DNA from: Lama guanicoe
Lineage: Eukaryota
Direction: 5' to 3'
NCBI GenBank assembly: GCA_013239625.1
Contig: MU053823.1
Coordinates: 751,565-815,564, forward strand
Length of the DNA: 64,000 bases
Part shown: one piece after another, positions 2,338 through 64,000 of the stretch
How the letters are laid out: each line of letters opens with the position of its first letter
How positions within the stretch are numbered: position 1 is the first letter of the stretch
The notes under the pieces: generated by a model
What the model was told of the DNA's origin: nothing
Databases searched by the model: none
Seen by the model: only the letters and a program-made list of their open reading frames with translations
Made by a program: the position numbers and the translations under genes

Positions 2338-3072
2338 TCAGAATTTTATGCAGACTCTGTATGTCTTAGACAGAGTTACATATGCATTAATGGTGTACAT
2401 GAAGAACATAAGACAGAAAGTCATGATAACCACTGAGACTGTAGCCAGAAGTATGATGGACATTATCTTTTCCTGCGTCCCCATAACCACGCATGTATAA
2501 GGTCCGTGACACAGGTGGGTACTGCACCAAATGGATTTTTTAATCAGTGGTAGGTGACAGTGAATAAGAATGACTAAGAAGATCACCTGTATAGACAACT
2601 GTACGAAAAAGTAGACAAGATACATTGCCAGCAGATGTTTTTCCTTGGATAAGTAAAAAATCTCATCTTCTTTTATTTTAACATGGTCTGCCTTTTTGTC
2701 TGTGTCACTGGAGTTCTCTTGGAAAGGTTGCTTCTTTAGCATCTTGATTTGCTTATGCACACTCTGCGAAACAAAAAACTCCATCACAAAGAAGACGGAG
2801 GAGAAGGCAAAGCCAACCAAGTACCAAACGCCTAGGACAGGCTTAGTGAAGTGGCTCTCATAGCACTCGGCTACACAGGATTTAGAGATATTCCCATGGC
2901 ACTGGAAGTCTTTCGCCAGATCAAGCCAAGTCATTTGCACTATGTACACAACTGAAATATAAACGAAGCTAACGCTGAACCACAGAGGTCGCCCTATGTA
3001 GAAGTCTGTGGGGTCTTTGCTCAGCAGCAGTATGGTGGGTGTCACAGCAGCAAATACTTTATTGTTAGACAT
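2338..3072 (-). CDS. Divergent connexin-like (gap junction family) protein, 244 aa, single coding exon
   Basis: Uninterrupted ORF from ATG 3072 (aagATGt) to TGA; four hydrophobic segments; loop 1 FQC58-x7-C66-x3-C70YE; loop 2 C183-x4-C188-x5-C194VVMGTQEK, compare connexin C....CP..VDCF.SRPTEK; IGR..W before TM1 and W.D...F.C after it. The ORF-track start at 3255 is a GTG upstream of a splice acceptor. Confidence 0.85.
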   Translation of the reverse strand: MSNNKVFAAVTPTILLLSKDPTDFYIGRPLWFSVSFVYISVVYIVQMTWLDLAKDFQCHGNISKSCVAECYESHFTKPVLGVWYLVGFAFSSVFFVMEFFVSQSVHKQIKMLKKQPFQENSSDTDKKADHVKIKEDEIFYLSKEKHLLAMYLVYFFVQLSIQVIFLVILIHCHLPLIKKSIWCSTHLCHGPYTCVVMGTQEKIMSIILLATVSVVIMTFCLMFFMYTINAYVTLSKTYRVCIKF

Positions 3073-13317: not shown

Positions 13318-13827
13318 TTTTTTTTTTTTTTAACATTTTTTATTGATTTATAATCATTTTACAATGTTACAATGTNNNNNNNNNNNNNNNNNNNNNNNNN
13401 NNNNNNNNNNNNNNNNNNNNNNNNNNNNNNNNNNNNNNNNNNNNNNNNNNNNNNNNNNNNNNNNNNNNNNNNNNNNNNNNNNNNNNNNNNNNNNNNNNNN
13501 NNNNNNNNNNNNNNNNNNNNNNNNNNNNNNNNNNNNNNNNNNNNNNNNNNNNNNNNNNNNNNNNNNNNNNNNNNNNNNNNNNNNNNNNNNNNNNNNNNNN
13601 NNNNNNNNNNNNNNNNNNNNNNNNNNNNNNNNNNNNNNNNNNNNNNNNNNNNNNNNNNNNNNNNNNNNNNNNNNNNNNNNNNNNNNNNNNNNNNNNNNNN
13701 NNNNNNNNNNNNNNNNNNNNNNNNNNNNNNNNNNNNNNNNNNNNGAACTCATATGGTATTTTTCTTTCTCTTTCTGGCTTACTTCACTTAGAATGACATT
13801 CTCCAGGAGCATCCATGTGGCTGCAAA
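13318..13827 (-). mobile_element. Young 5'-truncated L1 insertion spanning the assembly gap
   Basis: PolyT start, L1 3' sequence on both sides of the Ns, perfect 13-bp TSD tgcccctttattc at 13305-13317 and 13828-13840. Confidence 0.85.
13376..13744. other. Assembly gap (369 N)
   Basis: Run of n characters. Confidence 1.
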
Positions 13828-25399: not shown

Positions 25400-47405
<22,006 letters not shown>

Positions 47406-49763
47406 AGAGGAAAATGGGAACTACAATGCAGTGAGGTGAGTGAGGAGAACTGATTCATCATTGCTCAAAACAGTTACAGTTCTTGTGGAAATTGAGAACT
47501 CCTCTGGTATTAGAACAAAAAGAAAGGACGTACATGCACATACATTTCCATATATGTATATATTTGTGTGTGTATGTATATCCACACTCAGAATATGCAA
47601 TAACTTTTTATAAATATTTCTTATCCATCTCTGAGTTGCATAAGTATTTTCTAAGCAATCACAGTGCTACCTCATAGAGCTAAGGAGAAGATGGGTAAAT
47701 AAATATGAATAAATCTTCTAAAGCACTGTAGGAGTCATTTCAGGAAAGAGGCAGGACACACCCACAGCTGTGTGATGCATGCTATGGTAGAGACAGAATG
47801 CAATACTGCAGGAATATGGAGAGCTGGCCTAAGACACTTCAGGGAGATTGTGCAAAAAATGTGACGTTCAAGTTAAACGTCAGATGACTGCGAGATAGAT
47901 CATTGTAAGGAAAGGACGCGGCGTATACAAAATGTGGCACAGGAAAGAGCCACACCTTTGGGGAACGGTAAGAAGTTCTTCCCTCAGAAACATATACTGA
48001 AAATATTTATGGTAACCAGTGGCAACTTGAGCACTGAAGATACAGAGATAAGAGAGGTTGAAAAGGCATGATTGCTTACTGGAAGATCTCACAGCCTGTG
48101 GGGGGAAGTATGGAGACTCTGCAGAGAGAGAGAAATGGTGAGAATCTAGGCTGAAAAGTGTGGAGCCCAATAATGAGTGGTCTTATCTGCTGTATCTCAT
48201 GTTCATATTGTATTCTAGGGACAGATGGGGGGATGCTTTAGAAGATTAATTTGGGACAAGACACAATCAGATTTTCATTTTATAATTTGCTTTCATGAGG
48301 AAAGTGTAACAAAAGAAAAAAAGTGAATAAGGCAAGAAATTTGTTAAGTTATACACCAAAAAGAAAAGAAGGGGAAGCAAGTTAGTGGGTACATTTTCCT
48401 GGTTCTTTTAAAAAACAATTTTGGGAGGACTATACATTAGAAATGATATATGACAAAAGTATGTTTTTTGGTAGAAATATTGTATATGTTATATGAGAAA
48501 TATAGATTGAGACAAAGGATAAAAGTTGGAATTCTTAAAAGTATATAAATGTAGAGTGTTAATATCATATATATATATACATGTACACTTAGAACTGTTG
48601 TAAATTGTATATAGCTAAAAAAGTGTTAATATGTGTATATAAATTATATATACATGTTGTATACATATATATATGCCAATATTAATATATAAGCCAATTA
48701 TTAAGAGAAAGACAACATCTAATAAATAACTAGGCAAAGTCACAAAAAGCCAATCCACACAAAATGAATTTTAAATGACTAATAAATATTTTTAAAATTC
48801 TCAAGTAGTATGTCTGGGCAATTCAAAGTGAGATTAACAATGAGATATTGCTTTATACAAATTAGACCAACAGAAATTTAAAACAGCACCAATATTTATT
48901 GTTGGTGGGGACACAGAGAAAAATGTGATTTCAAACACTGCTGCTGGAAATGAGAGGTGTGGTAGCCTTTGGTGAAAGCAATCTGGAAACTTCCATTAAT
49001 TTTTTTAAAAAATGCCTCATGGATCCTTTGACTCAACAATTCTACTTACCCTTTAAAATTTCTTCCATACAGAGAAAGAAATTAGTATGTAAGAAGAAAC
49101 ATACAAGGATTCCCTTTTGCAGCCTTGTTAATAGTGCCCCAAAGCTGGAAACAAAGAGAATGCCAATCAGTGGGGTAGTGGCTGGAAAGATTATGGTGCG
49201 GCCAATCAAAAAAGGAAAAGTCACAAAAGTGCTATAATACATTCTATTTATGTGTTACATTACTGAATATAATTAAACATAATGATTACATCTACAAAAT
49301 TACACATATGTATACATGTAAAGAAGTATTTTGAAAATCCTAACATTGTACACTGAGGACTTTGAATGAGTTTTGATGGATAATCTCAAACATACAAATA
49401 TTATTCTGATGTAATAAATATTGATTAAACTACTTTTTCCTTAAAGAGTAATCACCACTGAATCACTGCTTCAGAATCACATGGGTGTGCTTTTAAAAAT
49501 GGCATTTCTGCACTGTAATTCTCTGGAATAGAAATAATTCTTAGGTACACTGAGGTCTGAAAATTGTTGCATTTAAATTTTCTGTTCGGAGCAGTAGTAT
49601 GCTTTTTAATATATGTGAGTGAGTGAGAGTATGTGTGGGCATATGTGTTTCTGTGAGAGAGAGAATGTAATATAATACATTGTATCACATTATCATGTAA
49701 TTCTTCTATGTATGTTCATATGAAGAGGAAATAACATTTTTTCTGTTTACGTCTTTCGTTCAG

Positions 49764-49962
49764 CCTTGACGTTCCCTTGAGGAAGACCTGAACGACTGAA
49801 TGATCAAGAATCCACCTCGTACACTGAAGATTACAACACAGTCCTTTGTCTCCTAGTGTTCCAAAGACTGCTGCTGAATTTCTAAAAATTAAATTGGTGA
49901 ATGTGACTACTAAAAGTTGTGTATGACTTTCAAGGGTATTAAATAAAAAGGAATATTGCTGA
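49764..49962 (+). other. CD163: CD163 last (3'UTR) exon with polyA signal at 49942-49947
   Basis: tctttcgttcag|cctt acceptor; attaaataaa followed by GT/T-rich sequence. Confidence 0.75.
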
Positions 49963-50169
49963 TTTGAATTTATCTTAACTCCCTGTTCTTGGTTTTATGA
50001 ATTTCTGAATGGGTTTTCTGACTTGTTTAGGATTTCATAAATATAATATGAAGTCTTTTCATTTGACAGAGTTTTCATTTGCATATATCTTTTTCTAGTT
50101 TGGTAATAATAATTTTTTTCTTATAATCAAATTAAATTTATTTTTCCTTTAGTTTTTTTCCGTATAATC

Positions 50170-50910
50170 CTGTATATGTAGCATATAAAACAGAACAAGG
50201 CAAAAACCAAGCTCATAGATACAGACGATTGATGTTGCCAGAGGTGGGGAGTGAGGGGGTTTGGTGAAATGGGTGGAGATCAGAAGATGCAAACTTGGGG
50301 ATCTAATAACTATGGTTAATAATAAGGTACTGCACATCTGAGAGTTACTAGAATAGTGGATGTTAAAAGTTCTCATCACAAGAAAAGAAAATTTGTAACT
50401 ATGATGGATGTTATATAAAGGACTATTGTAGTGATCATTTTCATATTGTTCAGTGTTTACAAATATGGAATAATTATGTTGTACACCTGAAATTAATATA
50501 ATGTTATATGTTAATTATATCTCAATTTTTTCCTTTTTCAGTTTTATTAGGTAGAATTATTACAGTTGGACTGCACATACACATTATATTGCATATAAAT
50601 GCATATATACAGCATACTGCACTTTTTTTAGTTTATATATATGTGCTAATTATTGTTTCTAAGAACAGATAGATCTTTAGCTTTTTAAACTTACATAGGA
50701 ATAAAGCCAACTACAAAATAAGAATCAACAGAATGTGGTAGTCCAATCATAAAGGACAGTCACATGTGCTCATACATATTCAAGAAATCAAAATAATAAT
50801 TAGTTCATGTATGTCCTTATTATTATGTTACTATTTTTTTAGATTCCTCATACAAATGATGTCATATGGCATTTTTCTTTCTCTTTCCTGCCCACTTCAC
50901 TTAGAATCAT
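50170..50910. mobile_element. L1 3' end on + (to about 50525) abutting an L1-derived fragment on -
   Basis: aagttctcatcacaagaaaa...tgtacacctgaaattaatataatg; later tttagattcctcat...cttcacttagaat. Confidence 0.7.
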
Positions 50911-53900
50911 GGTCCTCAGATTTAAGAAAGTAAAAATCTTGGTTAGGAACATATTCTAAAGTATGTCTTATTTTAATTTCTGTATGTAGCTTCATTTTTA
51001 TTCATCAGCCTACTCCGCGTGGAAGTGTGGTCTGAAACAACCTGATGAGCAGTCTGAAGGGCTTGGTGACTTTTCCTTGGATCAGTCACTGTAATCAGGG
51101 AGATGCGGGCTTGTAAGAAGACCCCAGCTCTAATCATTAACATATCAAACATGAAGGAGAGAAAGAAACTTTCCCAAAGAACCAGGGGAGGACGGATGTA
51201 CAGGTGCCTTAGAACAGAAGACAGTCACTGTGAGCTGAAAAGCCATTTCTGGTTTTCCACCAAATCTTTTATATCATTTTAAATAGGTGTTTTCCAAACT
51301 AATTTGATGACTAAACTTTTTTTTCACATTATTATTAGCCTTAAAAATTAATTTTCCAAGGACTCCATCTGAAACAGTTTCACAGATTATAGAATATTTT
51401 CAAACATGTGTTTTTCTGTTCTCATGGTGACACCAGCAAAACTTTCACAGAAAATCCAGCTTTGAGCAATGTAATTTCCCTCTGATCCCTTTAACATAGG
51501 CTGTTGTAATATACGTGCTAAAGTAAACAAACCTGGTGACGTTATTTTACCTTTTGAGTTAAATCCGTATACATCTCTTAATGTAAGATGTGAACCTTTT
51601 GGAAAGTTTGGGGTGGCAGTTTAGACTTCCTCTTGTTCGGCTGGAGTTTTCAGGCAGATTCTTTAACTTCCTCTGGTGTCCAGCATCCTAATATGATAAG
51701 GAAGTAGCAAAGAAAAAACAGCTTCAGCGTTTATAATGACTTCTGCTTTCAAGTGCCAGTAACTCAGTTTCCTGGTCTTATTTCTAAGGAACAAACCTGT
51801 TTCCACATTATAAGTACATCTCTGGGGGCATATAGAAAAGGGCCCAGGAATTATTTCTTAAGATTCAGGAAGAGATAGTCTCATGATAATGTTACATCAA
51901 AACTCTTGGCATATGGGTAAGGGTTTGTTTTTATTTTGCCCTGTCATTCGAGAGAGAGCGGGCATGGTAGGAGTATGTATGTTAACAGATAGACATAAAT
52001 ATTATGCATCAGGGACAGAAACAGGGAGGAAATTAGAAATATAAAAAATACTGGAAGTTTCATGGAGCTTAGAGTGCCAGCAATATTGGAGGCAGAATTC
52101 AAATCCCCCCCCCAAAAAAAGGGAAAATCGTTAATAAAAATAAAAATATATGGTAAAGACTGGAGATTAGAAGTCGTACAAGGACATGAAGTTGTGAAAA
52201 TGAAAATAAGGTATAAATGAGAAACTCACATTTGTTATTACCAAATGCCAGGTAGCGTAGTAAATGTTTCACATCATTTAAATTTAATTCTCACATGTAA
52301 CAGGATCTAATCCTGTAACATTTTCCTGGGATAAGAGAAGTTTTGTGCATTTTCCTTGACAGATGGAGGAATAATTCTTTTACTGCTTTGCTTCTACACT
52401 ATTATAGGTTTAAATCACTGACGTCATCTAACATTTCTCATAAGGGCATGGAATTCCATCTTGTTATATTCTGTTTCTACAGATTTTGGAAGATGCTGCC
52501 CTTATTAGAATCTTTTACCCACTGTGTCATTTACATCCTGCTCCTGAATTTCTGGTTTTTTTCTCTAGCTGCTTCAGTGAGTTCTTCAGAATGACTAGCT
52601 TGGGGCTTACACTCCCTCACCCCTCCTTTCTCCCACTCACTACCCAAGATAGCGACTCTGAGTTCAATAGAACATGTAAATGTAATGTTGGAAGTCTCAT
52701 AGAAAACTTACAGATTTTTAAACATAGTGTCTTTTGCAATTAGAAAAAGTTAAAAATTTGCAAAATGCGAAAATTAAAAAGAATTAAGCAAAATAAAGAA
52801 AACATACATAATATTAACTCACAGAGAAAACATACCTAAGAATTCAAAATACCAACTTCTGATACATAATCATATGAATACAAAATATTTTTTAAAAATT
52901 AGTTTTATACTATGCTACAGGTTATTATGTACACAGTCCTTTAACATTTTTATTACATCGTATATTCACTTGTAATGCAAAATTTTATCTGCGTACATTT
53001 CCTTCAACTAGAAATACTCAAATAGATTTAAGTGAAACCTTATGAGTGTACATTGCAGTTAATTAATTAAGTTTTAATAAAGTTATTTAATTAAGGTTAA
53101 TAATATTGTAGATAAACTGTATTTCATATTTCTGACACAAATTATCATTTTCCTAGATATTTCATGTTTTCTAAAAAAATTATTTCATGTCAAAATTATG
53201 AATATCATAGAGAAAATGTTCTTGCAGTTTTGTCCCCTTCCACTCATTCCATTTACTTATAGAGTTCTGTGTTGTTGAGAGAGGCCCATGAGAGTACAAG
53301 ATGGGTGCATGTTTTCTGCAGGGGTTTGCGGTGGTCTCTGGGAGGGCCCCTGGGGGCTGTTCCTCTGGCTGATTAGGGCGGATAATGGGGATTTCCATAA
53401 TTTTGCCCCTTTGAAGGGAATTTCTCAACTCCTGGAAGAAAATGGATGTCTACTGTCAGATCACTGATTCCGGTAGCAACCCCGTTTCCTACCTGTAACT
53501 GTGTATCTAGGGCCCAGGTCCCAGGAAGGAAAAAAATATAACATGTGCAAGTGGCTGTACGTCCAGTCAGCTTTTGAGAGTATGAATGTCAAACCTGGTT
53601 AGTTACTCAGTTAACTATCCATTTGCTGCTAACACTGTGCCAGTCTTATTCAGTCTCGTCAATACACTGTACGAAAGTTTCCATGTGCCCCATTTTATGG
53701 GGGAGAAGCCCTATCCTTAAGGAACAAAGCTAATAAGTAACAGAGCTGAGATCCTAAAAGCGTCAGTTAACCGCAGATCTTGGTTTCGTTTAATCTGGAC
53801 CGTTGAAATTGTACGTGAAAATGACTTGGGTGGTTTAGTTGGCAACAAGCTAAGTGAGTCAACAGTTTATTATCATTTCTAGGAAAGTAATTTGTTCTCA

Positions 53901-55184
53901 GTCTCTATTCATTCTTAGTTAACTGGCATTACATTTATAATATTTAATTCATGCCCTGGCTCCATCCTTTAAGATGTACTTGATAAAGATCTATAGATGT
54001 GGAAAAGGTGGATTAAAATGAGATGAGACGAAGAATCCAGGCATAGCAGAGGTCATTCAAGAATTCAAGGAAATGAATATTCATTAGATGAAAAAAAACT
54101 AGATGCAATCTGTAAAATGATTATCCTTTAATTAATGAAGAATGCAATCACCTCTAAAGAATTAACATAATAAGTCCTTATTTGGGTTAAAAAAAAAAAG
54201 AAAAAAACGGTGAAGGAAAAAGTGGAAAGCATGGAGAAACCTGGCAAACACTATCTGTACCAACTGTTCAAAGTCAGCAGAACCAGTAACGTCATTTTGA
54301 AATCCTGCGCCCACTGCTGTGACTCAATGAAAGGAAAACGTCACCTCAGCGGTGGTGTTCTTCCTCAAAACCCATCCTCACTTGAAAACAGCAAAGAAAC
54401 CCAAATTGCTGAGCTTTTTGCAAAATAAAGTTATAACAGATAATGACAGATCTAGAAATTGTCACAGATTGGAGGAGTCTAAGGAAATATGGTGACTAAA
54501 TGCAATGTGACATCTTAGATTGGATTACGGAACAGAAAAAAGATATTAGTGGAAAAAACAAAGAAAATCTAAAACAGATCTGCAATTTAGTTAATAGTAT
54601 TGTACCAATGCAAATTTCTGAGTTTTCATAAATATATCAGGCTTCTCAAGGAACGGAAGGAATTAAAAAAAGCAGAGCTCCAGGTCCCTCATTCCAGAAT
54701 GACAGATGAAGCCTTTCTCTGTGGCCCTGCCCTGATCTGCCAAAATTTCCATGTAGGTAATTCCAGTGTGATTAGTTTATCCCCATATGAGAGCGATTAT
54801 TGAGCTCCAAGAATTAAAGTCGGCAAAACCACACGTCTCATCTCACAGCTAAGAGGAAAAGAGAATATTCTAATCTGTAACTGAAATTGTATATTTTCTA
54901 CATTTCCTTCCAGCTCTAAATTTCTATGTATCAACAAGAAAATCTGCAGTAGCTGCCTCCTCACAGGTGATACCTAACTCACTGAAACTACTTATTTGTC
55001 AGGAAGGTCTTCAACTAAATTAATAGTGTCGAAGATCACTGTAAGCCCAACATGTCACAAGTGTGCCAATATTTTAGCCTCTAAATTGATTCCCTGCACT
55101 TCATCATACCTAGAGGGAGCGTGCGCGCCCGCACACACACACACATACACAATCATGTCAGTCTGAGGAACTGACATTCAAATT

Positions 55185-57000
55185 TGAGAAACATGGTCAT
55201 GGTAGCACAACAAGTGTGCAGCAGTTTCTGAGAACCGGGGCGGGAGGGTGGTGTAACCACAGAACCCGAGATTTGCCCAGCCTCTGTGAGGACACAGAGA
55301 AATGACAGAAATGCCTTGAAAAGGGCAAAGTGGTTGTGTGTGAGAGAGATAGTGGCCCACTCAAGTTCTCATGTCTCAGAAAAGACAGCTGTACTTTCCA
55401 TGGTCACTTAGAGAACCCCCGGTGACAAGCCTGTGTCTCTTTACCCCTCCATGAAAGAGATACCCCTTCACTCATCGCTGGAAAAGGAACAACTGCAGAC
55501 AAGGACACTCATTTGACTCCTTTGAGATCGTCACTTGGGGTACTGAGTTCTGACTTTGGACTCCTAAGGGCAAACGAGGGTCTCAGATTGTAGAAATTTT
55601 TCGTCTGCATTTGCCTCACTCAAGAACAGTGGCAGAGGTGAAGCAGAACATGGATTAGGGAAGTGGAGACATCTGTACAGATGACTGAGTGTTACAGTGA
55701 CTTCACGTGAAATTTGGGGCAATTCACTTAGTACATTATATATTCTCATTTATATAGTGGTGTGTTGGATTAGGCATCATGGTGGTTTAGTATTAAAACC
55801 ACCAGAAACATCACAGAAATAGAGAAAAAGGAGAAAATTTTCCAGAATGAAAACTCAGTTTGATAAATGTTCTCCCCAGAGAGAAGGCTCAGAGGCTCAG
55901 CTGAGAGGAAGGGAAGATCATGTGCAGAACGTGTGGGGCTGCCTCACTGAAACCACATTGGTGCGTGTTGTCTCAGATCATATGGGGCACGGACTGTGGA
56001 CCTGACAGAGCTGCCAGCTTTAACCAGAGGTGAAGGACAAGGAACACCAGCTGGCCTTCCCAGATGGCCCGTTTTTTTATAATATCGTCATCTTTACCCT
56101 TATCCACAGCATTATGCAGGGCGTATCTGTATCTGAGAATGACTAAGACTAAGTTCCCTGGGTCAGAGACAAATGTTTGGAAACCCTTTCCCAGGTGCCC
56201 AGGATCTACAGGGTCTCCCATATCCCTGCGCCTGGGCATTAATCTCAGCTCAGGCAGGGCCCTGAATTCTTCCTCATGCTCACAGGCATACCAGGAACAG
56301 ACTTCCCAGGCCTGTCCTCACCCATGTTCCCCAGGTATTTCCGTCATACCCGGAAATATAATTTTTAAAAACTCTTGGCCCAGGGTCATTTAAAGTCCTT
56401 TAAAGCCCAGAGAAGAGGAATTGTTTTCCCAGATCAGGTAGCAAGGAACATATTTTCCTAGTACCTTATACATTAATAGATCCCTTCTCTTCCTTCCATA
56501 TATACATTTTCTAGGCTCCACATTGAGATATTTCTTTATGTGTTCATCAACCTCCCTGAAGAAGGGGCAGACTGAGAAAAATGCAATGATAAGGATGGTC
56601 ATTGCAAGTAGGACAGATAGCCCCAAAGCCACACTCGGGTGTACCTTGGTGTCTGATTCAAACTCAAACATGAAGATGCCAATAAGGATAAAGGAATTCT
56701 CTGTCCCAGCTCTGTCACCTTCTACACGATCAGGATGATGAAGTCATAGAAACAATGGGAGAGATGAATATCTCAGTGGGAGCTGGCCAAGCCTTACGTG
56801 TGCCATAAAGGAAACACTGACCAAAATCAGATAGTTTCTTCCCTACAAAAGCCTCCAGGACCCCCGAAACACTAGCTTGTCTAACCTTGACCAGGAAGAG
56901 GGAAGACTCACACACATGTGTCCAGAATGAGTGTGTTTTCACTTTGGAATCATATCCACAGACAAAGGCCATGGCCTGTTTCCTTGGACTCTGCAAACTT
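55185..57000. repeat. Tandem duplication unit 1
   Basis: 55185-55730 closely matches 60404-60938; about 55800-57000 matches about 61490-62720 with lower identity. Confidence 0.9.
55472..56671 (-). pseudogene. Disabled copy of the small single-TM protein gene (exon equivalents 56671-56530, 56142-56051, 55563-55472)
   Basis: Exon 1 encodes 47 aa aligning without gaps to copy 2; donor 1 reads AT and donor 2 reads CT instead of GT; exon 2 is 92 vs 90 nt (expanded A run, frameshift). Confidence 0.65.
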
Positions 57001-57622
57001 AGAGCCAATTTTATTTAGAGAGAAAGACATTTAGCTGGAAGATGAAGAAAGATCAAGTGTTCCTGAACAGAACGTCCAGATCCTGCCGTCGAAGTTCCAG
57101 AATCCCGCGTCTTGGTGAACTTACTCGGCTCGGGAATGTGTGTCCCGCTGACTGCGGGAGTATCTCTCCAGTCACATTCGTCAGGGGAGGGAGCGGCTTC
57201 TTTTCTGAGTGCAATATGATGCTGCTTTCTGAACTAAACAGACTATTAGGCAGAGGAGTTTCTGTGAATGTCAGCATAATGTGCTCCCTCGGCCCTCAGC
57301 TGCGGCTCTGGAGACAGTGGGGAAAGATGAGGGAGAGGATTTCCACACTTGGAATTCATTTCTTAAAGGACGGACTCTCAGTATAGTACGTGGCCAGTGT
57401 TTGGCCCTGCTGACCCAGCACCCTGAAGAAACCTGCGGAGAAAAGAAATAGAAGTAGCTAAAGGAATCCTGGGTTGGGGTCGCCAGGTTTTCTGCTGAAG
57501 GTAAACCGAGAGCTCCCCTTTGCACTAGAGAGGCAACTGAGCTGCATTTCCTCTTGTCAGTTCCTCGTCCTTCCTGCCTCCTTGTGCGCGCTTCCTGAAT
57601 GGTAGGGGCTGGGAGACTGAGA

Positions 57623-57641
57623 ACTACATTTCCCACAAGCC
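57623..57641 (+). promoter_or_regulatory. ZNF143/THAP11-type promoter motif
   Basis: actacatttcccacaagcc matches ACTACAnnTCCCAnnAnnC; CpG-enriched neighbourhood with several CTTCCTG ETS cores. Confidence 0.65.
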
Positions 57642-58614
57642 CTTACGGGGGAATCTGAGCTAAGTTCCACCAGCGACAGGTTCTCCTATTAAGGGAGATA
57701 GAGTTTTGCAGGGGCCTCTGCACTTGCCTGAAAATTGTTAGCCTTGGTGTTGCAGCATCCTTTAGAAGTGGTTTCCTGGGGTTTTTGAAACTTCCTGATG
57801 AGGATTTTGTAAGCACATGATTTCCTGTTGTAAACCGCTTCCTGCTTTAAATACCTACAGGGCTTTCTGTCTGATGTCTGATTTTAGAGTCCTGGGTCTC
57901 CTTGAAATAACTTAACCTTTAGAAGAATTACGTTTCGGGGAGCAGGGCAACAGGGCTTTAGAGTTGTATCCTCTCATTCCAAAGTAGTGAATGAGGCAAC
58001 ATTTGTAAGAAATCTGTTTGGCAGGTTGTAAGGAAGAAAGAAACAAAGAAACAAAGAAAGTGAAAGAAATTAAACTCGGTAAGAAATACCAGAAACAGGA
58101 ATAGAAGAGACATGCACAAGCTCAGAGATGAAGAAAACAAAAACATTATTTAAAACATTTTAAAGCAATCAGGATATTAAAAAAAAGAATCAATAAGATG
58201 TAATAAATAACATACGAAAAAGAGAATAAAAATAAAAAAGAAGAAGTGTGTCCCCAGAAACTGCAAGAGCGCCTATGAAGAGAAAAATTATATACAAACA
58301 CCAAAGTGACACCCCCTCCCCCAAAGAAACAGGTGCAGACAGAAAGGACCGATATCCTGCGGACATTTTGAGTATCTTCTTAGTAGACGTCCATATGGTT
58401 TTACAAGCACTGAAATGAATCGGGACTTCAACAGTTCTTTGTCACGAATTATTATCATTATTAGACAACAAAAAGACTTTTCCAGACCATTTTAACTTTT
58501 CATCCAATGCAGAAATTCCTCCCCTAACTATTCTGAGAGGTAGCACCAGAATTTTCTACTGATCATTTCTTTCATTTCAAAACAACTTATTCCACGTCTC
58601 CAGCCCAAGTATCT

Positions 58615-58770
58615 TTCTCCTCTTTTCCCGTCCACCTCTGTTCTCCCCTCCTTCCCTTCCCCCAACTCCTTCCTCTTTTTCTTTCTCCTTCTCCAATCTT
58701 ACCCTTCCTCCTTCTCTCTCTTCCTCTCCCTCCTCCCAACCCCCCTCCAGTTCCTTACCTACTTCTCCAA
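58615..58770. repeat. Polypyrimidine (CT-rich) low-complexity tract
   Basis: Almost entirely C/T on the + strand. Confidence 0.85.
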
Positions 58771-60676
58771 CTGGAGGAGGTTCCAGGTAGATGCCTTAGT
58801 GACCCGTGAGGACAAATATATTGCACTTGGTTAAGAGAGGTGAACAGAGGGGTAAGCAGGTAAATGTGACAGGTAAAGATGAGAGAGAATAAGGTACAAG
58901 AATTTACATGAAGAGAAAACCTGATGTGGGAGTGGAGAGATAAAGATTAGTTTCACCTGATAATAAAAAATGTTTGGGGGCCATGAAGTTTTGGGTAGAA
59001 AAAAAATCTATAGCAATTCCTTCCCCATGCGTCTCTATGCATTTATCTCCATAGTCCACTCTCAGGTGGGAGAGGAGATGAAACTGATGTAAGAAAACCA
59101 TGCAATCTGGACGGAACATTTTTGAGGTCTTCAGATGAGTTTGCTCTGTGATCACCTTAGGGAGAGAGAGAAAGTCTCAGCTGTGATCCTGGATTAAGTG
59201 ACTGCTTCGTCTTACAGGGACCATGAGCTTCTCCCCCACTGTAAGAACGACTACATAGGCTGCTTTAGGAGAATAAGTCACTCACCTAGGATTCCACCTG
59301 AAAATAGGAAATTTGCTTGAGATTTGGATTGACTAAAAGTAGTTGAGTGTAAGAAACTCCAAGTTCAACAAAAAATTCCTAGTAGACAGAACTTTTCTGA
59401 GAGTCTCAAAATATTTATTATCTTTTTTTTCAGTATAAACACAGATAATGAGAGTCTTAGAAGCCCCCTCCCATTTGGGATGTGACGTCACAGGCTCATT
59501 GCAGTCTCAGCCACTCTCAAACTGATGGTCCAGGGGAACACATCTCAGCGTCATACTCCCCGGGCTCTCTTGCCACCCTCACGAATAGTGGGGGATCTTT
59601 TCGCATCCCATCTCTGTCTCCTCTGAGAACTTCTCTCCTGGGTGGCTCCAGGGGACATTCTGAAACAAGAAGAAAATTGCTTGGTTCTACCTGTGACCCA
59701 GAAGAATGACAACACCCATTTTAGAGAGCAAAAACAATGGAAGAGATGCAGGGTATAAAAATTTCTGTTCATCATAAAACGTTCAGAGCAATCCCTTTAG
59801 GACAGGACTATATGAGTCTTGTCCCATAGTCTGGGAAATACTTGTCGTAAGAGATTATTACTTCTCAAGGTGAATATACAAGACATGGAAGGAAGGAAAT
59901 CACAGCTCCAAAATCGTCATTCCTCGGTGACAGACTGACCTTCTCTGTGATGTTGTCCTGGTTCCCCAAATAGCTATGCAGAGAATCCCAAACTTTGTAA
60001 TAGTTGTTTATATAATGCGAGTTCTTACGTGAGTTATAAAAAAGTCCTTTCCAAAAGGCCCATAACTTTCACCTTACACAGCAAAAAGAAAATGATAACT
60101 TTCTCATCTGCTAATTAATGATATTATCGCTGATACTTCCTACATTAGCTCTAATGCTTCTCTCTCTAAGGTTCTGTGAGTTTCTAAAGAAATCTGGGAA
60201 AATGCTCTCCTCATCTCACCCAAGACTTTATGTATCTGTAAGGAAGGTCAATCTGCTGTATTGGGGGCAACGGTCATCACAAGGCAGGAAATGTCACAAA
60301 AATATTCACATTTTGGCTTTTCACCTGACTCACCACACTTTGGTTTACCTGCAGAGATAGTGCGAAAACAACCTGACGGCCCGTGGGACTAGCACTCACA
60401 TCTGAGAAACACGGTCATGGTAGCACAGCACGACTGAGAACCGGGGCGGGAGGGCGGTGTGACCACAGAACCCCGAGGTTCACCCAGCCTCTGTGAGGAC
60501 ACGGAGAACTGACAGAACTGCCGTGCAAAGGGCAAGATGGGGGTGTGAGAGAGAGGGGGGCCCACTTAGGTTCTCAGGTCTCAGAAAGGACAGCTGTACT
60601 ACCCGTGGTCACTTAGAGAACTCCCGGTGACAAGCCTGTGCCTCTTTACCCCTCCACGAAGGAGATACCCCTTCAC

Positions 60677-62389
60677 TCATCGCTGGAAAAGGAACGACTG
60701 CAGACAAGGCCACTCATATGACTCCTCTGAGATCGTCACTTGGGGTACCACGTTCTGACTTTGGACTCCTAAGGGCAAACGAGGGTCTCAGATTGTAGAA
60801 ATTTTTACAGCCTGCATTTGCCTCACTCTAGAGCAGTGGCAGAGGTGAAGCAGAGCATGCGCTAGGGAAGTGAAGACATCTGTACAGATGACTGAGCGTT
60901 ACAGTGACTTCACGTGAAATTTGGGGCAATTCACTTAGCTTTTTCAACTAATAAAAGTATTATATAGTCTTATGTATATAGTGGCAGTGTTGGGCTAGAC
61001 ATTTCTGGTTGTCTACAATTAAACCATGATCTACTTTATTTTCCCTCAGAGCAACTCAGTAACCTTTTATAGACCAGGCTCTTCAGTTTTGTGTGAGGGA
61101 ACCCTGGTCAGAGTACCGTGTAACGTTCATACTGAGGGAGTGATGTGATGCACTCAGAGAACCCAAGAATCCAGCGTGTCCCCTCCCTGTGATGTCACAA
61201 GGTTGCCACAGAACAACACAAAAAAGGGCTGCCCTTGCCTGGAGAGGCAAGTCACCTCACAGACACAATCCGTAGGAATTATGGTCAACAGGTGGTCAGA
61301 ATGTTCCCTAAAAAAAAAGGACTTTCAGTCTCCCCAGGCTGTTTGTACAATGGTCTCATCACTTAGCCCTATCACAGAGGCAACCTTACAGCAAGTGCCT
61401 GGAGAAGGGGCACTTTGTGTTTCATTGTCTGGCATTAAAAAAAAAAAAAGGTAGCTTAGTCACTGAGTCACTTGAGAGGGAGCCTCGATAAAGAGAGGAA
61501 CATCACAAGCACAGATGAGAAGAGAGAATCTTGTCCACCTACACGTAGCCCTAGACAGCACACTGGTGCTCATTATGAAGTTAGTGAGGAGTTAATGAGA
61601 GCCAAACTGATGCTTAAAAAATGTTTTCCCTGAAGGGAAGACTCAGAGGTCTTAGGCTAAAGGAACATGAGGGGGCTGTCTGAGAACAGATTTGACTTTG
61701 GGGTTCTCATGGGAGTAACTAGAGGTACTGGCTTATGGCCACATGAACCCAAAGGTGAAGGGCAAAGAATACTCACCTGGCCTTCCTAGATGACCCATCT
61801 TTATGTCACTGTTTTCTTTATCCTTGCGGACAGCATTATGCAGAGGGTACCAGCATCTGAGCAAGACTAAGGCAAAACACCCTGGGTCAGAGCCCATCAT
61901 CTGGAAACTCCTTCATTCCCGCAGGCTCCCCAAGATCCCTTATGCCCTGATGCCTCAGCATGATGTAAGCTCCGGCAGGGCCCCAGACACTTCCTCGCAC
62001 TCCACGGATATACCAGGAATGGACTTCCTAGCCCAGTCCTGACCTGTGCTCCCCAGGTACTTCTGTCATGTCTAAGATTATGATTTTTAAGACTTTTAGT
62101 CTTGGGTCATTGAGATCTTGGAGATCAGAGAAGAGTAGACATTTTTCTTCATGTTCCCCGCATTATGATGTATACTTTCTCCTCCCGCCATACACACATT
62201 CCCTCATTATAGTTCACCCGCACCCCAAAGCCCACCATGGAACTTACATTTCTTTATATGTTGGTCTGTGTCAGATAGAAAGGGCGAAAACATGACAAAG
62301 AGAAAAAATACAAAGAACATAGCATACAGGACATAGAGCCAAGGAACAACGTTTGGGAACAGACCGGCCCCCAGGTCAACTTCCGCCAT
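60677..62389 (-). CDS. Predicted 3-exon gene for a ~107-aa single-pass membrane protein (exons 62389-62248, 61866-61777, 60768-60677)
   Basis: Donors GTAAGT and GTGAGT, acceptors tgttttgccttag and cgtttgcccttag, all phase 1, 324 nt open: MAEVDLGAGLFPNVVPWLYVLYAMFFVFFLFVMFSPFLSDTDQHIKKFLLRCWYPLHNAVRKDKENSDIKMGHLGRPGVQSQNVVPQVTISEESYEWPCLQSFLFQR. Exon 3 is less certain than exons 1-2. Confidence 0.6.
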
Positions 62390-62451
62390 CGAGATCTGAG
62401 GACACGGAATTCTCTGCCCCAGCTCGCTCACCTTCTAGGTGACCAGGGCGA

Positions 62452-62509
62452 TGAAGTCACAGCTTCAGGCACAATGGGAGTGATGAAGCTCTGGATGGGG
62501 ATTGGCCAA
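62452..62509 (-). promoter_or_regulatory. Candidate promoter module: CRE-like TGACTTCA, SOX ACAATGG, Y-box-like GATTGGCCAA
   Basis: tgaagtca 62452-62459, acaatgg 62471-62477, gattggccaa 62500-62509; CRE-like and SOX motifs are retained in copy 1 (56739-56746, 56751-56758). Confidence 0.5.
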
Positions 62510-64000
62510 GGCTCGTTCTATAAATGCTGGATGGAAACAGGTACTCTCAGGGAGCTTCACCTCTGCCACAGCTCCATTGAGCCCAGACACTAGATGATCA
62601 GGTCAGACTGGCAACGGGGTGGATTTTACTACATGTATTCAGAGTGTGTATCTCACTGCATTGGAACCATATTCATTCACATAATGAAGAAACTATTTCT
62701 CTAGACTTCACAGCCCTGCAGCCAGCCGTTTTCAACAGAATGCTGTCTAAGTTGAAGGACCCAAAACAAAGGACAGATTTTCTTTGCCACAGGGAATACT
62801 CTGTCCCAGCACCGCTCCCCAGTGCACATAATGATCTCAATTTCTGGTCTGAGCTCAGCCTTCTAGGAGGTGACCGACCAGTGCAGACCCATTGACAAAA
62901 TGCTAATGTAGTTCCGTGGTCTTTGTCAGCTTCCAAAACATTTTACATACTATCTTTATGATCCTTTGCACTTCATCTCTATCTGCCATGAGTGTGTGTT
63001 TCCTCTCAAGGTGCACAAACCCCCTACTCCTCACTCAAAACCGCAGAGCAATCACTGACACCACGACCCTGCCTAAGAGAAAAAATGTGTCCAGTGCTCG
63101 GCTGGACAAGAAATATGAGGTTTAAATATTGCTCTGTGGGAGCGTCTCATCCAATTGCGGAAATTAAATTCCAGACAGAAAAGGCCAGGGTCACTGTGGA
63201 TTGTGAAAATCAGGGGGTTCTTATGGAACGTTAGAGAGGAAAAATTATAAGCGAATGGAGCTGAAATAAAATTATCTACTGAGGTCAAGATGACTTCCTG
63301 ATTCTGAGGGATGTAAACAGGAAACCCAGATGTCTAAGTGCCTTTATTAGCTTCATTTTTGATCGAGTCTCAGATATTAAACTTTTTCAACCTATTTTTT
63401 TAAACTTGCCAAGATAAGAATTAATGTTTAAAAGCTGAAACAAACAAACAAAAATGTTCATGCTATTTCACTTTTATCATTGCTAATAACCACACCAGAA
63501 TAAAATCATGACTGTTGTTTTGTTTTGTTTGTGTTGTTTTGTTTTGTGTTGATATCTTCACACAGAAAGGTTCACGTTTTAGGCCAAAACAATACTCATT
63601 AACTCAGGCACACCTTTCTCCTCCCAATAAAGCTTTTTCCTCCTTATGTAGAAATCCGTTCAATTTTATATTCTTTTTTTCATATAAAGTCTGTTTATAA
63701 CCCCTTGTATAGGAAAAAATAAGGAAAATATAATTAAAATAATCATGAGTGGGGAGGTTTTAAAACATATAGTATTTACCTTTATTTTTTTTTTAACAAA
63801 CAGAGGGTTTTAAATCTGATGGTTCATTAAATGATTCAAAATTAATGTAAGTAAATAAAGGAGAAAAACTGGGGGACAAAGATGTTGAAGTAGTATAAGA
63901 AAACAGTATGGCACTAAAAAATGGTTCATTGGAGTCTCTTTAAATTTTACTTTCTTTAGATTTTCCCCAGATTTGTTGAGATATGATTGACATATAGCAT

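What the first reader, a model, noticed from the sequence alone, without database searches (positions are those of the whole stretch)
60677..62389. Hidden three-exon gene for an unrecognised ~107-aa single-pass membrane protein
Not visible as a whole in the ORF track. Seen: consensus splice sites with consistent phase; exon 1 of both copies gives exactly 47 aa with shared M.E........P.V...L.VL.AM......F....PF....D.HIKK; exon 2 differences include third-position synonymous changes (gtc/gtg, aag/aaa, ggt/ggc, cta/ctg) in the Y.LHNAV.K.K...GHLGRP frame, which suggests past coding selection. I do not recognise the family. An alternative 33-nt phase-1 exon (60682-60650) and a further acceptor near 60493 could change the C-terminus.
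Basis: partly seen in the sequence, partly recalled or inferred. Interest (0 to 1): 0.72.

Follow-up and report, generated by a model that had tools for sequence, protein, structure and literature searches.

The report
Camel copy of unstudied testis gene

Summary
The gene is real but not new. Exon 1 (62389-62248) and exon 2 (61866-61777), minus strand, match mouse 1700013D24Rik, rat RGD1307916/LOC362433 and unnamed genes of carnivores, bats, horses, artiodactyls and primates (47-61 of 77 residues identical in 21 of 21 orthologues compared). The conserved last exon is 59659-59517 (34 of 47 identical to pig), giving 124 aa, not 107. The window is camel-like and lies downstream of CD163. Mouse and rat orthologues are testis-restricted and spermatid-expressed. 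No Pfam family, solved relative or functional paper was found. Extra: orthologues end in one of two homologous last exons, A or B (donkey has both); 22 of 23 B tails end in a PDZ-type motif, 1 of 17 A tails does; camel has only A. A second, broken-looking 5' copy at 56671 was once coding. Likely an N-out, C-in single-pass accessory subunit in spermatids (inferred). Splice junctions were not read in camel RNA.

The parts
62248..62389 (-). Coding exon 1: 47 codons plus 1 nt; short N-terminus and the Phe-rich transmembrane segment (about residues 16-39)
   Evidence: ATG, GTAAGT donor; 62-79% identity to 11 mammalian proteins; genomic read-through ORFs of other mammals (e.g. P0002, P0011, P0063) diverge right after the same junction
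62390..62432 (-). 5' untranslated stretch with a strong upstream donor at 62432, similar motif in the second copy; may give transcripts that skip the membrane exon
   Evidence: donor score 10.8, alignment; membrane-less isoforms are annotated in fur seal and Arvicanthis; use in camel not shown
61777..61866 (-). Coding exon 2, 90 nt, phase 1 on both sides; basic juxtamembrane helix with conserved Cys52
   Evidence: boundaries match read-through ORFs P0071-P0073, P0077
59517..59659 (-). Conserved last coding exon (type A tail, 46 codons plus stop); a canonical polyadenylation signal follows about 100 nt after the stop
   Evidence: acceptor score 12.3, the highest listed between exon 2 and this exon; 34/47 identical to pig, 31/47 to Bos; type-A profile E 1e-22, only significant hit in the window
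60677..60768 (-).
   Evidence: <=6/30 identity to 21 tails; 6 non-synonymous vs 1 synonymous change against the second copy
60334..60348 (-). Candidate 15-nt phase-1 microexon (frame-keeping), unverified
   Evidence: acceptor 9.8, donor 9.3; a frame-keeping 14-aa cassette is annotated at this junction in Arvicanthis, homology not shown
60385..61023 (-). Intron-2 block 84-90% identical to 55167-55797, against 70-78% for the rest of the duplicated unit: probable later gene conversion
56530..56671 (-). Second copy, exon 1 equivalent: 47 open codons, hydrophobic, canonical donor lost; a weak in-phase donor lies at 56506
56051..56142 (-). Second copy, exon 2 equivalent: 92 instead of 90 nt, donor GT replaced by CT

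Best explanation
Shown: the locus is the camel orthologue of mouse 1700013D24Rik / rat RGD1307916, a three-exon gene (62389-62248, 61866-61777, 59659-59517) for a 124-aa protein with one hydrophobic segment (about residues 16-39), a continuous helix to about residue 64 and a disordered tail. Taken from other species: transcribed almost only in testis, in spermatids before transcriptional shutdown. Inferred mechanism (about 40%): no cleavable signal; the uncharged N-terminus goes to the lumen or outside and the basic C-terminal part stays in the cytosol (type III). The nearly invariant Phe-rich helix and the basic helix below it, with a conserved cysteine that could be palmitoylated, pack against a larger membrane protein of the spermatid secretory pathway, acrosome or flagellum, as a small accessory subunit or assembly helper; the variable tail only tethers it. 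Inferred history: an early tandem duplication left two copies; the downstream copy diverged as a coding paralogue and later decayed at its 5' end, while its last exon (type B, PDZ-type end) survived as an alternative last exon in horses, carnivores and rodents and is missing in camel. The confidence below is for identity and exon structure.
For: Orthologues: (55 hits at E<=0.01 among 3462 candidates). Exon 3; four unnamed assembly-derived proteins (P0085-P0088) run from the end of intron 1 through exon 2 straight into the type-A tail, which implies spliced RNA in a ruminant-like source (inference). Mouse cDNA-derived entries AAI20817.1/AAI20819.1 and rat NP_001102115.1. Expression: PMC7436996 supplement row, testis fold change 10.9 (log2 by the paper's text), 0 in spermatogonia, Sertoli and epididymis columns; rat atlas cluster 1, 'almost exclusively in the testis'; PMC6424977 Gene Set 2. 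Topology: best 19-residue hydropathy 2.39, 0 K/R before and 4 K/R in 20 residues after the segment (pig 1/7, mouse 0/6); model helix 16-64, pLDDT 75-92 for residues 21-60, <50 for most of the tail. Two tails: profile-profile probability 95.6, tree split 100/100, donkey LOC106847301 X1 and X2. Second copy once coding: 67 of 141 nt differ yet no stop or indel (intron 1: 14 indels in 274 aligned nt); neutral simulation keeps both open frame and hydrophobicity in 0.8% of 5000 runs.
Against: No camel splice junction or tissue was read. No camelid protein of this gene appeared in any search, so camel annotation is unseen. The camel protein changes 5 of 37 conserved head positions, third most of 36 rows, and has a long end branch (0.27 vs pig 0.11), though it lacks close relatives in the set. 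No partner, localisation or knockout evidence exists in what I could search. Synteny with Cd163 in other species was not shown. That tail B was the second copy's last exon is untested: no relic was found at 47000-59300 or 59800-61700 and no genomic DNA of other mammals was obtained.
Confidence: 0.88

Rival explanations
1. The reader's 107-aa form (last coding exon at 60768) is the main camel product, a lineage-specific new tail.
For: Acceptor motif is acceptable (8.0) and in phase; a stop 27 nt before a possible donor at 60650 would escape the usual 50-nt decay rule (rule recalled).
Against: No orthologue support in 21 of 21; no purifying signal between copies; the conserved exon at 59659 is intact with a stronger acceptor and a polyadenylation signal. 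As a minor isoform it is not excluded (about 25%).
Confidence: 0.06
2. The camel gene is under relaxed selection or on its way to loss, so the protein is made but works poorly or not at all.
For: G14V, F22Y, L25F, L39S, I41T at positions >=90% conserved; long branch; tail B missing.
Against: All three exons open, splice sites canonical, length the same as Bos, donkey X1 and macaque (124 aa); two murids show more such changes; leave-one-out counts favour species with close relatives in the set.
Confidence: 0.12
3. The hydrophobic segment is a cleaved signal peptide and the product is a small secreted peptide of spermatids.
For: The segment is near the N-terminus and no second hydrophobic segment exists.
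Against: It starts at about residue 16, is over 20 residues long, nearly invariant across 33 sequences, and is followed rather than preceded by basic residues. No signal-peptide predictor was run.
Confidence: 0.08
4. A conserved but dispensable or redundant testis protein with no measurable role in fertility (compatible with the gene model above, rival only to the accessory-subunit mechanism).
For: Many testis-enriched genes give fertile knockouts (general knowledge; several titles in the listing); the mouse table lists no human homologue.
Against: Thirteen invariant and 29 nearly invariant columns across 33 sequences from primates, rodents, carnivores, bats and ungulates.
Confidence: 0.35

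Closest known systems
Mouse 1700013D24Rik (Q0P521, ENSMUSG00000079346), rat RGD1307916/LOC362433, donkey LOC106847301, fur seal LOC112816309, pig A0A4X1TR22
   Same: Same protein: 47-61 of 77 head residues identical, same exon 1/2 boundaries, type-A tail 25-34 of 47 identical.
   Different: Rodent entries end in tail B; camel has only tail A, five changes at conserved positions, and a visible second 5' copy (whether other mammals keep that copy was not tested).
1700029I15Rik / C11orf94 / FREY (analogy only; abstract and outline of PMC9974436 read)
   Same: Small testis-specific single-pass protein of round spermatids that helps assemble acrosomal membrane proteins: the kind of job proposed here.
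   Different: Type II topology (this one is predicted N-out, C-in); no sequence relation appeared; no direct pairwise comparison was run.
Adipogenin (PF15202) and Nlp36 (PF21525) clusters
   Same: Small single-pass proteins, nearest by language-model features (0.82 and 0.86).
   Different: Scores under 0.9 are leads only; Pfam found neither family. Not related as far as tested.

Membership tests
1700013D24Rik orthologue group | Sequence identity over exons 1-2 | tested here: met
   47-61 of 77 identical in 21 of 21 orthologues
1700013D24Rik orthologue group | Same exon boundaries | tested here: met
   Genomic read-through ORFs of other mammals diverge at the same points (P0002, P0011, P0063, P0071-P0073, P0077); indirect
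1700013D24Rik orthologue group | Type A or type B last exon | tested here: met
   Type A at 59659-59517, E 1e-22; type B profile finds only a cross-match to the same exon
1700013D24Rik orthologue group | Position next to CD163 in other species | tested here: inconclusive
   CD163 confirmed in the window; rat gene at chr4:156.82-156.95 Mb but Cd163 coordinates were not in the stored table; adjacency in rodents is recalled only
1700013D24Rik orthologue group | Testis-restricted spliced mRNA in this species | not tested
   No reads were laid; evidence is from mouse and rat only
Any Pfam / NCBIfam family or solved structure | Profile hit above the curated cut-off | tested here: not met
   No hit above cut-off for the exons or orthologues; PDB sequence best E 0.4; Foldseek 0 matches (low-confidence model)
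Class I PDZ ligands (motif S/T-x-hydrophobic at the C-terminus, recalled) | C-terminal motif | tested here: not met
   Camel ends GPSV; motif in 1 of 17 type-A and 22 of 23 type-B orthologue tails; binding not tested
FREY/C11orf94-like assembly factors | Type II topology and OST interaction | not testable with these tools
   Charge bias predicts the opposite topology; interaction not testable here

The most novel reading that the evidence does not exclude
An unstudied placental-mammal spermatid membrane protein whose gene duplicated early and captured the dead copy's last exon, so that one membrane anchor can carry either a PDZ-binding or a non-binding tail, sorted differently among lineages; it is a missing small subunit of a sperm membrane complex needed for fertility, and an intact but unannotated coding orthologue exists in humans (macaque, langur and orangutan have predicted proteins, the mouse table lists no human homologue).
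Probability: 0.15. Interest if true: 0.65.

Novelty: already known. Interest (0 to 1): 0.3.

Why it matters
The gene itself is annotated in many mammals, so it is no discovery. It is, however, a well-conserved, testis-restricted membrane microprotein for which I found no Pfam family and no functional paper, the class that has yielded fertilisation factors such as FREY and FIMP. The corrected exon model, the two alternative tails and the once-coding second copy give concrete, cheap tests (junction counts, knockout, interactome, a look at the human locus).

Tried and rejected
Camel RNA: one search listed 23 runs, 17 holding part of 60300-62700; three guessed-RNA runs (X1-X3) hold 0.21-0.25 of the words and eight (X4-X11, two labelled reproductive system) hold 0.05-0.19. 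None was laid, so none is used as evidence, and junction use and tissue in camel stay open. No whole genome is held. Two metagenome scans for genomic DNA of other mammals found nothing (579 and 594 pattern matches, 0 confirmed). No type-B exon or relic in the window by HMM, tblastn or DNA alignment against shuffles. ESM Atlas: leads under 0.9 only. PDB sequence and fold searches empty. Repeat proteins P0014 and P0020 dropped from the 13 hits. Literature (CC PubMed Central and bioRxiv full text only): '1700013D24Rik' and '1700013D24' 1 paper each, the same one; 'LOC362433' 0, 'RGD1307916' 0, six further identifiers 0 (one, RGD1560559, was my guess); searches gave no paper on this gene by title or abstract start. 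PMC1955454: name not in the text, supplement unreadable; the Mm.46140 match was a guessed term and is not evidence. PMC5916943 supplements: 0 hits. PMC12235456 passages concern WC1 genes only. Unseen: files 13-15 of PMC7436996 and of PMC6424977, the cut part of the rat atlas file, Liu et al. 2011, subscription journals and knockout databases, any of which may hold more on this gene. Earlier scan findings: none. No complex prediction was sent, as no partner is claimed. SPATA31/FAM205, TSBP1 and WC1-tail resemblances were considered from memory and dropped for lack of any hit.

Full report
Context. The window is mammalian. A connexin-like ORF near its start is 98% identical to Camelus ferus LOC116661262, and the SRCR exons on the plus strand match CD163 best, so this is a camel-like genome with the finding about 12 kb past the end of CD163 on the opposite strand. 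The species is inferred from that one protein.

Observation. Joined to the acceptor at 60768 they give 107 aa. Exon 1 alone found 4 rodent-type proteins among 6 candidates and 11 mammalian homologues at 62-79% among 13 hits in 1.84 billion representatives. The cluster of the best hit contains the product of the mouse RIKEN cDNA 1700013D24 gene. A profile of 14 of these sequences gave 55 hits at E<=0.01 among 3462 candidates, from rodents, carnivores, bats, horses, pig, ruminants and primates; every named one is called uncharacterised, hypothetical, unnamed, by a locus number or just 'transmembrane protein'.

Correction of exon 3. An exon 1.1 kb further down, 59659-59517, gives 25-34 of 47 identities with 9 of them, a weaker match with 10, and none with 2 whose models have other tails. 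It has the strongest listed acceptor in that intron and a polyadenylation signal about 100 nt after its stop. The protein is 124 aa, as in Bos, donkey X1 and macaque. Four unnamed assembly-derived proteins run from exon 2 directly into this tail, which implies spliced RNA in a ruminant-like source (inference). It is not excluded as a minor isoform; no camel reads were laid.

Expression, from other species. PMC7436996 (passages and one supplement row seen) lists 1700013D24Rik as mouse reproductive-tract specific: fold change 10.9 in testis, 0 in the spermatogonia, Sertoli and epididymis columns, human homologue column empty. PMC8900154 (passages and one supplement row) puts rat RGD1307916/LOC362433 in cluster 1, expressed almost exclusively in testis. 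PMC6424977 (passages and one supplement row) puts it in Gene Set 2; sets 1-4 are those that fall after transcriptional shutdown in spermatids (that this file is Supplementary Data 10 is my reading of its columns). I found no paper on its function in the searches listed under Tried and rejected.

Anatomy and mechanism. One hydrophobic segment, no basic residue before it and four within 20 residues after it, predicts N-out, C-in topology (positive-inside rule, established knowledge). Of 13 invariant columns in 33 sequences, 11 lie in the first 73 residues; Cys52 is nearly invariant. The model of the pig protein is one helix, residues 16-64, confident over 21-60, with a disordered tail (mean pLDDT 59); amphipathicity below the membrane is moderate (0.37-0.60). 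No Pfam, NCBIfam, PDB or fold match. Such conservation of a membrane helix in a protein too small for catalysis is best explained by packing against a partner. I commit to a small accessory subunit or assembly helper of a spermatid membrane complex (about 40%), working like FREY (PMC9974436, abstract seen) without being related to it. A dispensable role is nearly as likely. All of this is inference.

Two tails. Orthologues end in one of two last exons that are homologous (profile-profile probability 95.6) and split 18 against 22 rows with full support, on few columns. Donkey has both as isoforms X1 and X2 of one gene; type A occurs in primates, bats, artiodactyls, dog and seals, type B in rodents, cats and polar bear, so by inference the pair predates the split of these groups. 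Database entries may show only one of the two per species. 22 of 23 B tails and 1 of 17 A tails end in a class I PDZ-type motif (motif recalled, binding untested). The window has only type A.

Second copy. 62700-59900 is collinear with about 56950-54670 at 70-78% identity, with an 88-93% block at 61000-60400, probably a later conversion. Its exon 1 differs at 67 of 141 nt yet has no stop or indel and stays hydrophobic; 0.8% of 5000 neutral simulations do so, and third positions are enriched (28 of 67, P 0.03), so it was coding for a long time. It now lacks both canonical donors and exon 2 is 2 nt longer: most likely a pseudogene, though a weak in-phase donor at 56506 would allow a 111-aa frame. 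No last exon follows it. The simplest history is a whole-gene tandem duplication whose downstream last exon became tail B; this could not be tested because no genomic DNA of other mammals was obtained.

Against the reading. The camel protein alters 5 of 37 conserved head positions, third most of 36 rows, and has a long branch; relaxed selection is possible. No camelid entry for this gene was returned. Rodent synteny with Cd163 is recalled, not shown.

Verdict. Interest 0.3.

Noticed in passing
window 2338-3069 (-): Single-exon divergent connexin-like ORF (Pfam Connexin E 5e-15), 98% to Camelus ferus LOC116661262, 61-73% to full-length uncharacterised or 'gap junction beta-6-like' proteins of dog, cats, bats, hedgehog and mouse lemur; no human, mouse or ruminant entry named among the 23 hits.
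   Followed up: partly
window about 27700-47450 (+): CD163 gene, SRCR exons visible as ORFs.
   Followed up: partly
window 59297-59286, 59155, 58794-58759, 57432-57010 (-): Further good splice motifs downstream of the gene: a 12-nt and a 36-nt candidate exon and a strong acceptor at 57432 followed by AATAAA at 57015. Could belong to a longer or non-coding transcript; the two pieces scanned have no Pfam hit.
   Followed up: partly
P0069, P0067, P0068, P0070, P0023: Rat, Arvicanthis and fur seal have annotated isoforms that replace or skip the membrane exon; rat X1 carries a different hydrophobic N-terminus, and the rat Ensembl model spans 121 kb.
   Followed up: no
P0017 cluster, P0059: An unnamed cluster (one member on 466 contigs) has an open exon 1 with the same upstream extension as the orangutan model, while the mouse table lists no human homologue. 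Exons 2 and 3 of that source were not seen.
   Followed up: no
window about 54630-54200: Collinearity of the second copy ends here; the sequence resembles an old L1-type repeat (recalled, not tested).
   Followed up: no
window about 13370-13740: Run of N (369 in the window): the assembly has gaps, so the 2-nt difference in the A-run of the second copy's exon 2 could be checked against reads.
   Followed up: no
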